DNA from: Salmo salar | Taxonomy: Eukaryota | Length of the DNA stretch: 64,000 bases | NCBI RefSeq assembly: GCF_905237065.1 | Contig: NC_059464.1 | Coordinates: 3,047,803-3,111,802 of the forward strand | Direction of reading: 5' to 3' | In this document: positions 59,344 to 61,577 of the stretch, piece after piece | How the letters are laid out: each line of letters starts with the position of its first letter | Numbering within the stretch: position 1 is the stretch's first letter | Position numbers and translations under genes: made by a program | The notes under the pieces: model-generated | What the model saw: the letters and a program-made list of their open reading frames with translations, nothing else | Told to the model about the DNA's origin: nothing | Database searches by the model: none

Positions 59344-60456
59344 TAATGGCGTCAGACCAAGGCTCTGCATCTGTTCTCGTGCTCCTAGATCTTAGTGCTG
59401 CTTTTGATACCATCGATCACCACATTCTTTTGGAGAGATTGGAAACCCAAATTGATCTACACGGATAAGTTCTGGCCTGGTTTAGATCTTATCTGTCGGA
59501 AAGATATCAGTTTGTCTCTGTGGATGGCTTGTCCTTTGACAAATCAACTGTAAATTTTGGTGTTCCTCAAGGTTCCGTTTTAGGACCTCTATTGTTTTCA
59601 CAATATATTTTACCTCTTGGTGATGTCATTCGGAAACATAATGTTAACTTTCACTGCTATGCGGACGATAGGCAGCTATACATTTCGATGAAACATGGTG
59701 AAGCCCCAAAATTGCCCTCCCTGGAAGCCTGTGTTTCAGACAGACATAAGGAAGTGGATGGCGGCAAATGTTTTACTTTTAAACTCAGACAAAACAGAGA
59801 TGCTAGTTCTAGGTCCCAAGAAACAAAGAGATCTTCTGTTGGATCTGAAAATTAATCTTGATGGTTGTATAGTTGTCTCAAATAAAACTGTAAAGGACCT
59901 CGGCGTTACTCTGGACCCTGACCTCTCTTTTGACGAACATGTTAAGACTGTTTCAAGGACAGCTTTTTTCCATCTACGTAACAAAAATCTGAAACTTTGT
60001 CCAAAAATGATGCAGACAAATGCATCTATGCTTTTGTCACTTCTAGATTAGACTACTGCAATGCTATACTTTCCAGCTACCCGGATAAAGCACTAAATAC
60101 ACTTCAGTTAGTACTAAACACGGCTGCTAGAATCTTGGCTAGAACCCAAAAATGTGATCATATTACTCCAGTGCTAGCCCCTCTACACTGGCCTCCTGTT
60201 AAGGCTATGGCTTATTTCAAGGTTTTACTGCTAACCTACAAAGCATTACATGGGCTTGCTCCTATCGGTCTTTCCGATTTGGTCCTGCCGTGCATACCTA
60301 CACGTCATACCTATGGTCACAAGATGCAGGCCTTCTTATTGTCCCTAGAATTTCTAAGCAAACAGCTGGAGGCAGAGCTTTCTCCTATAGAGCTACATTT
60401 TTATGCAATGGTCTGCCTATCCATGTGAGAGATGCAGACTTGGTCTCAACCTTTAA

Positions 60457-61502
60457 CCTCTTTGGGATAGGGGGTGTTATTTTGACGTCTGGATGAAAAG
60501 CGTGCCCAAAGTAAACTGCCTGCTACTCAGGCCCAGAAGTGAGGATTTGCATATAATTGGTAGATGTGGATAGTAAACACTCTAAAGTTTCTAAAACTGT
60601 TAAAATAATGTCTGTGAGTATAACAGAACTGAAATGGCAGGCGAAACCCAGAGGACAAACCATCAACAAAACAAAAAACGAATTCAGCACGCCACTGATT
60701 TCAATGCCTGGCACTTTTATAATAGGGCGAAATCGTCCCCGATTGCAGTTCCTTGGGCTTCCACTAGATGTCAGCAGTCTTTAGAAAGAGTTTCAGGCTG
60801 TTTTTTGTAAAAATGAGGGACAACTTGTAGTTTTTGTAAGTGACTCCCATTTTGGCTGTAGTGTTTCGAAGCGCATGGCCGAGAGAGCACGTTCTTTATC
60901 TCTGGTAAAGACAATAACGATTCCCCGTCTTAAATTTTATTGTTTATTTTCGTATTAGGGTACCTAAGGATTGATTATAAACGTTGATTGACTTGTTTGG
61001 ATAAGTTTATTGGTAACGTTTGGGATACATTTTTTATGCATTTTGAACGAAGGAAACCGAGTGGATTATTGACTGAAGCGCGCCAACTAAACTGAGTTTT
61101 TATGGATATAAAGAAGGAATTTATCGAACAAAAGGATAATTTGTAATGTAACTGGGACATTTTGGAGTGCCAACAGAAGAAGATCTTCAAAGGTAAGGCA
61201 TATATTATATCGCTATTTCTGACTTTCGTGTCGTAACTCCCTGATTGAAAATGGTTTGTTATGCATTTGTGTGCTGGACGCTGTCCTCAGATAATCGCAT
61301 GGTTTGCTTTCGCCGTAAAGCCTTTTTGAAATCTGACACCTTGGCTGGATTAACAACAAGTTAAGCTGTATTTTGATGTATTGCACTTGTGATTTCATGA
61401 AAGTTTAATGTTTATAGTATTTTAATTTGAATTCCCCACTCTGCAATTTCACCAGCTGTTGGCCAGGTAGGACGCTAATGTCCCACCTACCCCAAAGAAG
61501 TG
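60457..61502. mobile_element. Non-autonomous TTAA-target element (piggyBac-like MITE), copy 2, inserted in the L2 LINE
   Basis: The termini are CCTCTTTGGGATAGGGGGTG... and ...CCCACCTACCCCAAAGAAGTG. TTAA lies on both flanks (60453-60456 and 61503-61506). Removing it restores the L2 reading frame TCAACCTTTAAGTCTTTATTGAAC (STFKSLLN). Internal blocks are shared with copy 1 (CTAAAGTTTCTAAAACTGTT..AATGGTGTCTGTGAGTATAACAGAACT; GCTTTCG..GTAAAGCCTTTTTGAAATC.GACA). Confidence 0.65.
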
Positions 61503-61577
61503 TTAAGTCTTTATTGAACACTCATCTCTTCAGTAGGTCCTATGTTTGAGTGTAGTCTGGCCCAGGGGTGTTTTTTA

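What the first reader, a model, noticed from the sequence alone, without database searches (positions are those of the whole stretch)
60453..61506. The same TTAA-MITE family inserted inside the 3' coding tail of an L2 LINE
Copy 2 (1046 bp, CCTCTTTGGGATAGGGGGTG...CCCCAAAGAAGTG) is bounded by TTAA. Removing it restores the L2 reading frame ...VSTFKSLLNTHLFSRSYV, the characteristic L2 3'-terminal peptide. Two independent insertions of one family, into a Tc1 element and into an L2 LINE, each with an intact TSD and a clean reconstructable empty site, argue for recent mobilisation. Copy 2 carries an internal deletion of about 390 bp relative to copy 1.
Basis: seen in the sequence. Interest (0 to 1): 0.5.

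Follow-up and report, generated by a model that had tools for sequence, protein, structure and literature searches.

The report
Known salmonid TTAA transposon inside LINE
This is an ordinary nested-repeat situation in a salmonid fish genome: an old, non-coding, TTAA-targeting "piggyBac-like" DNA transposon of the already described pTS group sits precisely inside the dead coding tail of an L2-type LINE.

Summary
Window 60457-61502 is a 1046-bp non-coding element with imperfect terminal inverted repeats, flanked by TTAA on both sides. Two uninterrupted paralogous L2 copies read CTCAACCTTTAAGTCTTTA across the site with a single TTAA. Protein homologues read ...SVSTFKSLLKTHLFS.SYD without a gap.

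The element belongs to a known group, the salmonid piggyBac-like pTS elements (pTSsa1/pTSsa2, de Boer et al. 2007, PMC2198921). Those have a TTAA target, CCT termini, about 18-22-bp ITRs, no ORF and a conserved first 200 bp.

- Copy 1 (42326-43763, 1438 bp) is a pTSsa1 member, 87% identical over 1398 bp. It sits in a DTSsa5-type Tc1 element.
- Copy 2 is only about 77% identical to copy 1, and only over the first 200 bp and parts of the last 340 bp.
- Copy 2 belongs to a different, older lineage. Its nearest relatives found are 76-84% identical.

"One family" is therefore only loosely true, and "recent mobilisation" is not supported. The 392-bp length difference is real. It equals one of the two ~390-400-bp internal repeat units carried by every full-length relative, so a deletion is the parsimonious reading. 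Low interest: a new, divergent member of a known kind.

The parts
60453..60456 (.). Left TTAA target-site duplication of copy 2
   Evidence: Read directly. Paralogous L2 copies have a single TTAA here.
60457..61502 (+). Copy 2: a 1046-bp non-coding, non-autonomous, TTAA-specific (piggyBac-like) element of the salmonid pTS group, from a divergent lineage
   Evidence: Homology to copy 1 and to pTSsa1, pTSsa2 and DTOmy13-1. Lineage relatives are L123, L124, L127 and L128. No Pfam domain in any ORF of 50 aa or more. No Rfam match at E<=1.
60457..60474 (+). 5' terminal inverted repeat, CCTCTTTGGGATAGGGGG
   Evidence: Inverted repeat I1, 19 nt, 84% complementary. Two mismatches to the copy 1 terminus.
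60548..60643 (+). Conserved subterminal core (TGCATATAATT...CTAAAGTTTCTAAAACTGTT...TGTCTGTGAGTATAACAGAACT...TGGCAGGC), a putative cis-acting region
   Evidence: Most columns are at least 90% conserved in 17 sequences from lineages that are otherwise 70-77% identical. de Boer et al. noted that the first 200 bp are unusually conserved. The function is inferred, not shown.
61062..61502 (+). Single 3' module, homologous to both internal units A and B of the two-unit relatives
   Evidence: Copy 2 positions 606-1004 match L129 unit A at 68% over 412 bp. Positions 623-906 match L129 unit B at 73%. Positions 643-898 match DTSsa13-6 1021-1275, and 629-775 match DTSsa13-6 618-763.
61483..61502 (+). 3' terminal inverted repeat, CCACCTACCCCAAAGAAGTG, preceded by a short palindrome (GGTAGGAC...GTCCCACC)
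   Evidence: The palindrome is not significant against shuffles (z = -1.67).
61503..61506 (.). Right TTAA target-site duplication of copy 2
57990..62853 (+). Host: a degraded, 5'-truncated L2-type LINE. It is interrupted by copy 2 and by a SINE, and ends in (GATT)n. The 5' limit is approximate.
   Evidence: RVT_1 at E = 6.7e-26. The ORF is broken by frameshifts and stops. The C-terminal domain has 519 homologues in fish. It is colinear with O. mykiss paralogue L121 up to 62848. The tail was read.
61572..61769 (-). tRNA-derived SINE inserted in the 3' UTR of the same L2 copy
   Evidence: Absent from paralogues L121 and L122. The flanking alignments abut. Similar copies lie elsewhere in the window.
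42322..43767 (+). Copy 1 (42326-43763, 1438 bp) with its two TTAA duplications; a pTSsa1 (DTSsa13) family member
   Evidence: 86.8% identity over 1398 bp to DTSsa13-183 and 80-86% to four other pTSsa1 copies. Terminus CCTG...AGG. Inverted repeat of 27 nt, 78% complementary.
40941..43839 (-). Host of copy 1: a DTSsa5-type Tc1-like transposon, about 1453 bp without the insert
   Evidence: HTH_Tnp_Tc3_2 and DDE_3 domains. A 23-nt terminal repeat matches at 40941-40963. The terminus is TA|AACTCAGC, as for DTSsa5 in Table 1 of PMC2198921. Uninterrupted DTSsa5 and DTOmy5 copies read GGGTTTAAACAC.

Best explanation
Window 60457-61502 is a non-autonomous class II (cut-and-paste) transposon of the salmonid 'pTS' piggyBac-like group. 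It encodes nothing.

The proposed mechanism is as follows. A piggyBac-type transposase, supplied in trans, recognised its ~18-19-bp imperfect terminal inverted repeats. It probably also recognised the strongly conserved subterminal core at positions ~92-187. The element was then inserted into a TTAA inside codons F-K of the C-terminal peptide of an L2-type LINE ORF2, duplicating the TTAA.

The element represents an old lineage, distinct from the described families pTSsa1 and pTSsa2. Copy 1, at 42326-43763, is a pTSsa1 member. Copy 2 carries only one of the two ~390-400-bp internal repeat units present in all full-length relatives, most simply through loss of one unit.

Shown: the boundaries, the TSD, the empty site, homology to pTS elements, the absence of coding capacity, and the divergence values.

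Inferred: the piggyBac-type transposase (no autonomous partner is known), the role of the conserved core, the direction of the unit change, and the old age.
For: - **Boundaries and TSD:**
- **Empty site:** verified at DNA level in two paralogous L2 copies, with an exact 4-nt overlap, and at protein level in 16 homologues.
- **Literature description:** pTSsa1/2 have a TTAA insertion site, ITR end CCTG, ITR of ~18-22 bp, length ~1440 bp, no ORF and a conserved first 200 bp. Nested insertions into other transposons were reported (PMC2198921).
- **Copy 1:** 86.8% identical to DTSsa13-183 over 1398 bp.
- **Copy 2:** 77-80% identical to all pTS sequences over positions 1-197. It also shares internal blocks, for example 84% over positions 289-337 with pTSsa2.
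- **Lineage relatives of copy 2:** L123 at 81.5% over 422 bp, L124 at 76% over 578 bp, L128 at 77% over 415 bp, and L127 at 84% over 204 bp. The first three extend into the lineage-specific interior of copy 2; L127 covers only the conserved first 208 bp.
- **TTAA at independent junctions:** seven of ten 5' junctions recovered without TTAA in the query have an intact TTAA. These are copy 1, copy 2, L121 12007-10, L123, L124, L126 and L129 19060-63.
- **No coding or RNA signal:** no Pfam domain, no Rfam family.
- **Two-unit architecture:** seen in pTSsa1, pTSsa2, DTOmy13-1 and L129.
- **Mobility of the group:** pTSsa2 is a presence/absence polymorphism in Atlantic salmon, so the group is genuinely mobile (PMC7560756).
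Against: - No autonomous partner or piggyBac transposase (PF13843) was found in the window (tblastn). None is reported for pTS elements. The superfamily assignment therefore rests on the TTAA target and CCY termini only.
- The 3' end of copy 2 reads ...AAGAAGTG|TTAA, not ...RGG|TTAA. Its inverted repeat is 2 nt out of register with the TSD.
- A 2-bp TA duplication with element ends A...T gives the same empty site and cannot be excluded from sequence alone.
- No relative covering the 3' half of the copy 2 lineage was obtained (one search found nothing). Whether the one-unit form is private or typical of a subfamily is unknown.
- The age estimate uses a handful of relatives from unidentified fish DNA in metagenomes, possibly from other species or subfamilies.
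Confidence: 0.9

Rival explanations
1. One reading: both copies are members of one recently active TTAA-MITE family, and copy 2 is a simple internal-deletion derivative of a copy-1-like element.
For: - Both copies have intact TTAA duplications and clean empty sites.
- They share termini and a conserved 5' region.
- The related family pTSsa2 is demonstrably young and polymorphic in Salmo.
- The length difference of 392 bp equals one internal unit.
Against: - The copies are only 74-79% identical where they can be aligned. Their central parts cannot be aligned.
- Copy 2 carries lineage-specific sequence shared with L123, L124 and L128 but not with copy 1.
- All relatives of copy 2 that were found are at most 84% identical to it.
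- Intact 4-bp TSDs are expected in about 43% of cases even at 10% divergence.
- The elements are too long to be called MITEs.
Confidence: 0.07
2. It is a TA-targeting (Tc1/mariner-type) non-autonomous element with termini A-CCT...AGG-T. The apparent TTAA would then be TA plus element ends.
For: The empty site is identical under both models (reasoned). The window is full of Tc1-like elements that could supply a transposase.
Against: - The outer T and A, which lie outside the element under this model, are conserved at 7 of 10 independently recovered 5' junctions and at both ends of both window copies. The target is therefore TTAA either way.
- Salmonid Tc1 termini are CAGT, CACT or AACT, often with long ITRs (Table 1), unlike CCTG with ~18 bp.
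- There is no sequence similarity to the Tc1 elements in the window.
Confidence: 0.02
3. Segmental duplication or gene conversion, rather than transposition, produced the two copies.
For: None beyond the presence of two related sequences 18 kb apart.
Against: The flanks are unrelated. One is a DTSsa5 Tc1 and the other an L2 ORF2 tail. Each copy has its own TTAA duplication, and paralogous empty sites exist for both.
Confidence: 0.01

Closest known systems
pTSsa1 (= DTSsa13) piggyBac-like non-autonomous transposon of Salmo salar (de Boer et al. 2007, PMC2198921)
   Same: - Copy 1 is a member: 1438 bp against ~1440 bp, TTAA target, CCTG terminus, and 80-87% identity over its full length.
- Copy 2 shares the TTAA target, the CCT terminus, ~18-bp imperfect ITRs, the conserved 5' 200 bp (77-78%), the conserved 3' block GCTTTCGCCGTAAAGCCTTTTTGAAATC, and the lack of ORFs.
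   Different: - Copy 2 is 1046 bp and has one internal unit instead of two.
- Its terminus is CCTC rather than CCTG.
- Its interior at positions ~200-600 is not alignable to pTSsa1.
- Its identity is below the 80-85% family threshold everywhere except short blocks.
pTSsa2 (= DTSsa14; GenBank EF685967), recently active and polymorphic in Atlantic salmon (Bertolotti et al. 2020, PMC7560756)
   Same: Same group and same architecture of the ends. Copy 2 shares an interior block with it (positions 289-337, 84%, GCTTCCACTAGATGTCA...CTTTA.AAAG).
   Different: pTSsa2 is ~1435 bp with two units. Many of its copies are more than 95% identical, and it is restricted to Salmo. Copy 2 matches it at only 75-77% over the first 200 bp, and no near-identical relatives of copy 2 were found.
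DTOmy13-1 (Oncorhynchus mykiss IgH.A locus, AY872256; supplementary file of PMC2198921) and related elements in O. mykiss scaffolds (L121 12011-, L129 19064-)
   Same: - Closest described sequence to the 5' end of copy 2 (79.9% over 184 bp).
- The same CCTCTTTGGGATAGGGGG terminus.
- Shares the lineage signature GGATGAA..GCGTGCCCAAA..TGCCTGCTACTC.
   Different: DTOmy13-1 and L129 have two internal units and are about 1.35-1.4 kb long. Beyond the first 200 bp, identity to copy 2 falls to 68-73%.
Non-autonomous piggyBac-superfamily elements in other vertebrates (e.g. human MER85/MER75, from general knowledge)
   Same: TTAA target-site duplication, short TIRs starting with CCY, no coding capacity, and presumed trans-mobilisation by a DDD piggyBac transposase.
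   Different: No sequence relationship was tested or expected. For MER85 the parental transposase gene (PGBD3) is known. For pTS elements no parent is known.

Membership tests
Salmonid pTS group (pTSsa1/pTSsa2; de Boer et al. 2007) | TTAA insertion site duplicated on both sides | tested here: met
   Copy 2: 60453-56 and 61503-06. Copy 1: 42322-25 and 43764-67. Single TTAA in paralogous empty sites.
Salmonid pTS group (pTSsa1/pTSsa2; de Boer et al. 2007) | ITR end CCTG; imperfect ITR of ~18-22 bp with consistent left/right differences | tested here: inconclusive
   Copy 1 meets it: CCTG, with 27-nt arms 78% complementary. Copy 2 has CCTC, as does DTOmy13-1, with 19-nt arms 84% complementary and a 2-nt offset at the 3' end.
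Salmonid pTS group (pTSsa1/pTSsa2; de Boer et al. 2007) | Sequence homology, especially the conserved first ~200 bp | tested here: met
   Copy 2 positions 1-197 are 75-80% identical to all ten published sequences tested (E down to 1e-41). The core at positions 92-187 is near-invariant.
pTSsa1 or pTSsa2 as families (branches at ~80-85% similarity) | At least ~80-85% identity over the element; length ~1440 bp | tested here: not met
   This applies to copy 2. Its best match is 80% over 184 bp only, its interior is unalignable, and its length is 1046 bp. Copy 1 does meet the criterion for pTSsa1 (86.8% over 1398 bp; 1438 bp).
Salmonid pTS group (pTSsa1/pTSsa2; de Boer et al. 2007) | No significant ORF or protein motif | tested here: met
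   The longest ORF is 75 aa in copy 2 and 86 aa in copy 1. No Pfam hit at E<0.08.
piggyBac superfamily | TTAA target-site duplication | tested here: met
   As above. In addition, 7 of 10 independently recovered 5' junctions have TTAA.
piggyBac superfamily | TIRs of the form 5'-CCY...RGG-3' | tested here: inconclusive
   Copy 1: CCT...AGG, met. Copy 2: 5' CCT is met, but the 3' end is ...AAGTG, not RGG.
piggyBac superfamily | Mobilised by a DDD (DDE_Tnp_1_7, PF13843) transposase, either encoded by the element or by an autonomous partner with matching TIRs | not testable with these tools
   The element does not encode one. None is in the window (tblastn with T. ni piggyBac recalled from memory, best E = 2.8). 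No eukaryotic genome collection was available to search for a partner.
piggyBac superfamily | Precise excision restoring a single TTAA | not testable with these tools
   This needs population or excision data. Literature on pTSsa2 only: deletion polymorphisms whose breakpoints match the complete element (PMC7560756).
MITE (miniature inverted-repeat transposable element) | Small size, usually below ~800 bp (general knowledge) | tested here: not met
   1046 bp and 1438 bp.
L2-clade LINE (host element) | Reverse transcriptase domain, plus the conserved C-terminal domain ending ...FKS.LKTHLF | tested here: met
   RVT_1 at E = 6.7e-26. The C-terminal 166 aa has 519 fish homologues at E<=1e-10, with the motif aligned. 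That this motif marks the L2 clade comes from my own knowledge; no phylogeny was made.
L2-clade LINE (host element) | 3' end with a short tandem repeat rather than poly(A); UnaL2-type 3' stem-loop (RF00436) | tested here: inconclusive
   The element ends in (GATT)4 at ~62853. However, none of the five RF00436 hits lies at this element's own end.

The most novel reading that the evidence does not exclude
Copy 2, together with L123, L124 and L128, may represent an undescribed, ancient sub-family of the salmonid pTS group, possibly with a one-unit architecture.

The ~95-bp subterminal core (copy 2 positions 92-187) is kept near-invariant across lineages that are otherwise 70-77% identical. It is more conserved than the TIRs themselves. 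It may be the real recognition or assembly site for a still unidentified transposase, or it may carry some other selected cis function such as a promoter or enhancer.
Probability: 0.3. Interest if true: 0.25.

Novelty: new member of a known kind. Interest (0 to 1): 0.1.

Why it matters
It matters little beyond repeat annotation.

- It confirms that TTAA-specific pTS elements insert into other repeats. Such nesting was already reported in 2007.
- It shows that the group contains older lineages than the two named Salmo salar families.
- It highlights a very conserved subterminal core.
- It is a reminder that no autonomous transposase has been identified for a group that is still polymorphic in Atlantic salmon.

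Nested, datable insertions like this one can serve as phylogenetic or rediploidisation markers in salmonids, if orthologous and ohnologous loci are compared.

Tried and rejected
- **Metagenome scan.** Scanning metagenome contigs with the TIR motif CCTNTTNGGGATAGGGGG gave 120 loci. All were chance matches, with no BLAST similarity beyond ~20-35 nt.
- **Conserved 22-mer scans.** Viral contigs and GTDB genome contigs both gave 0 hits.
- **Protein search, copy 2 ORF at positions 519-734.** This was meant to recover the 3' half of lineage relatives. No candidates were found, so I could not tell whether the one-unit form is typical of a subfamily.
- **Paralogous empty sites inside the window.** None were found. 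External paralogues had to be fetched.
- **Further pTS fragments in the window.** A search with all 15 related sequences found none.
- **Rfam.** Nothing at gathering threshold on the window within the elements, and nothing at E<=1 on copy 2.
- **Folding of the termini.** No significant structure.
- **Pfam on all element ORFs.** Nothing.
- **tblastn with piggyBac transposase.** Nothing.
- **Literature.** A search for the L2 C-terminal motif and one for a salmonid autonomous piggyBac found nothing useful.
- **Rejected ideas.** Segmental duplication, because the flanks are unrelated. The insert being part of the L2 family, because paralogues lack it.
- **Notebook correction.** The TTAA coordinates given in note 3 for L121 and L129 are slightly off. 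The correct values are L121 12007-12010 and L129 19060-19063.
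Full report
**1. The observation**

The window is salmonid-like repeat-rich DNA. It contains Tc1-like transposases, tRNA-derived SINEs and L2-type LINE tails.

At the stated coordinates, TTAA (60453-60456) is followed by a 1046-bp segment (60457-61502) and a second TTAA (61503-61506). The ends of the segment form a 19-nt inverted repeat, 84% complementary. The 3' arm is 2 nt out of register with its TTAA (...CCCAAAGAAG-TG-TTAA against TTAA-CCTCTTTGGG).

The 18-nt 5' terminus occurs exactly twice in the window, at 42326 and 60457, against 0.03 expected. BLAST of the segment against the window finds one relative, at 42326-43763. 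That relative is 1438 bp and is also flanked by TTAA on both sides. No further copies or fragments exist in the window, even when searching with 15 related sequences.

**2. The empty sites**

The window holds no uninterrupted paralogue of either host, so I fetched external ones.

*L2 host.* The reconstructed C-terminal 166 aa of the LINE finds 519 fish proteins at E<=1e-10. In an alignment of 16 of them, the peptide ...SVSTFKSLLKTHLFS.SYD is contiguous. The window peptide LVSTFKSLLNTHLFSRSYV aligns without a gap, and the F at the junction is invariant.

At DNA level, an O. mykiss scaffold (L121, FR904887.1) and a metagenome contig carrying fish DNA (L122) both read GGTCTCAACCTTTAAGTCTTTACTGAAGACTCATCTC across the site. 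The window aligns to them in two pieces. These pieces overlap by exactly four bases of the paralogue (L121 10617-10620; L122 765-768), which is the TTAA.

*Tc1 host.* The host of copy 1 is a DTSsa5-type Tc1 element on the minus strand, with HTH_Tnp_Tc3_2 and DDE_3 domains. Its terminus is TA|AACTCAGC, as in Table 1 of de Boer et al.. Published uninterrupted copies (DTSsa5-4, DTSsa5-9, DTSsa5-5, DTOmy5-1) read GGGTTTAAACAC at the site.

Both insertions are therefore real, precise and independent.

*Caveats.* Insert plus TSD is 1050 bp, a multiple of three, so 'frame restoration' carries no weight on its own. The L2 ORF was also already riddled with frameshifts and stops. RVT_1 is still detectable at E = 6.7e-26.

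**3. What the element is**

A literature search led to de Boer et al. 2007 (PMC2198921). They described two piggyBac-like families in Salmo salar, pTSsa1 and pTSsa2. In the supplementary files these are called DTSsa13 and DTSsa14. Their features are:
- insertion site TTAA;
- ITR end CCTG;
- ITR of about 18-22 bp with consistent left/right differences;
- length about 1440 bp;
- no ORF;
- a 380-bp 'NheI repeat';
- a first 200 bp that is unusually conserved between the families;
- nested insertions into each other and into a Tc1 element.

I took ten of their sequences from the supplementary FASTA.

*Copy 1.* It matches DTSsa13-183 at 86.8% over 1398 bp, and other pTSsa1 copies at 80-86%. It is a pTSsa1 member.

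*Copy 2.* It matches all ten sequences only at 75-80% over positions 1-197, plus short colinear blocks. It matches none of them over its interior. Its terminus CCTCTTTGGGATAGGGGG is shared with DTOmy13-1 from rainbow trout.

*Lineage relatives.* I used a minus-strand ORF that happens to be open across the conserved core as a handle in the protein database. This recovered short contigs of fish DNA that carry true lineage relatives:

| Contig | Identity to copy 2 | Copy 2 positions |
|---|---|---|
| L123 | 81.5% | 65-479 |
| L124 | 76% | 3-573 |
| L128 | 77% | 9-422 |
| L127 | 84% | 5-208 |

These sequences are 70-80% identical to each other. A 17-sequence alignment of the 5' 260 bp shows two clades. 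One is pTSsa1/2. The other contains copy 2, DTOmy13-1 and L123-L128. A core at copy 2 positions 92-187 (window 60548-60643) is conserved at 90% or more in most columns. It is better conserved than the TIR.

*Coding and RNA potential.* No ORF in either copy has a Pfam domain. No Rfam family matches at E<=1. The window encodes no piggyBac transposase.

**4. The '390-bp deletion'**

The copies differ by 392 bp. Local alignment shows colinear homology of copy 2 positions 1-197, 708-741, 809-900 and 990-1042 with copy 1 positions 1-201, 1105-1138, 1207-1297 and 1389-1436. The offset is constant at about 397.

Full-length relatives contain an old internal duplication of about 390-400 bp, with units A and B:
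- copy 1 positions 864-897 match 1246-1279;
- copy 1 positions 1041-1135 match DTSsa14-9 623-717;
- copy 1 positions 660-751 match DTSsa13-6 1023-1114.

The single 3' module of copy 2 aligns to both units of an O. mykiss element in L129. The match to unit A is 68% over 412 bp, and the match to unit B is 73% over 292 bp.

Two units are present in both clades (pTSsa1, pTSsa2, DTOmy13-1, L129). Parsimony therefore favours loss of one unit in the ancestry of copy 2. I could not recover the 3' halves of its closest relatives, so whether the loss is private or marks a subfamily is open. Copy 2 is in any case not a deletion derivative of copy 1.

**5. Age**

Nothing supports recent movement of copy 2:
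- its nearest relatives are at most 84% identical;
- its TIRs have three mismatches and a 2-nt offset;
- two of its relatives have degenerate TTAA flanks (TCAA, GCAA).

An intact TSD is weak evidence, since (1-0.1)^8 = 0.43.

There are caveats. Only a few relatives were sampled, they come from unidentified fish DNA, and they may belong to other species or subfamilies. The group as a whole is certainly capable of recent activity: pTSsa2 is a presence/absence polymorphism in Atlantic salmon (PMC7560756).

**6. Mechanism and classification**

The best-supported model is trans-mobilisation by a piggyBac-type transposase that cuts at TTAA and recognises the TIRs and, probably, the conserved subterminal core.

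The TTAA target is well supported. Both ends of both window copies have it, and so do seven of ten 5' junctions retrieved without TTAA in the query.

The superfamily assignment remains inferential, because no autonomous partner is known. A TA-duplication model with A...T element ends gives the same empty site. It would still require a TTAA target, and the termini do not resemble salmonid Tc1 ends.

**7. Verdict**

This is a correctly observed but ordinary nested transposon insertion. It belongs to a group described in 2007. The specific copy is a divergent, probably old, one-unit member. Interest is low.

Noticed in passing
window 61572-61769 (minus strand): A tRNA-derived SINE is inserted in the 3' UTR of the same L2 copy, 65 bp downstream of the pTS insertion. 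Paralogous L2 copies L121 and L122 lack it. Similar SINE copies lie at about 45521-45661, 24486-24533 and 40601-40668. From memory it resembles the salmonid HpaI/SmaI-type SINEs.
   Followed up: partly
window 8602-8655, 11672-11725, 27858-27911, 54539-54592(-), 63432-63485: There are five Rfam UnaL2 LINE 3' elements (RF00436, 61-74 bits). Two are preceded by tRNA-like heads (11570-11641, tRNA-Ala-like; 63350-63407), which makes them tRNA-SINEs with L2-type tails. None lies at the 3' end of the L2 copy that hosts copy 2. That copy ends in (GATT)4 at about 62853.
   Followed up: partly
window 60548-60643 and 42416-42515: A subterminal core of about 95 bp in pTS elements is near-invariant in 17 sequences from lineages otherwise 70-77% identical. 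It is better conserved than the terminal inverted repeats. It contains a small palindrome, TCTGTgagtataACAGA. Its function is unknown.
   Followed up: partly
window 40941-43839 (minus strand): The host of copy 1 is a DTSsa5-type Tc1-like element, about 1453 bp without the insert. Its two 23-nt ends match perfectly (40941-40963 against 43818-43840), but its transposase ORF is broken into pieces.
   Followed up: partly
L125 (ENA ERZ928327 contig), 1-1247: Two pTSsa1-type copies lie head-to-tail within about 30-55 bp of each other. One of them is 96.6% identical to copy 1 over 383 bp, the closest relative of copy 1 seen. De Boer et al. reported such adjacent and nested arrangements.
   Followed up: no
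L121 12007-12540 and L129 19060-20400 (O. mykiss scaffolds FR904887.1, FR905569.1): Further pTS-group elements of the copy 2 / DTOmy13-1 clade, each starting right after a TTAA. The L121 element is rearranged, with an inverted internal piece. The L129 element has two internal units but no recognisable 3' terminus.
   Followed up: partly
protein hits P0037 and P0087: A fish L2 C-terminal fragment is annotated as a 'hypothetical protein' of Vibrio parahaemolyticus. This is likely host-DNA contamination of a bacterial assembly. One Scortum barcoo gene model fuses this LINE domain with a piggyBac transposase domain (PF13843), probably a gene-model artefact over nested repeats.
   Followed up: no
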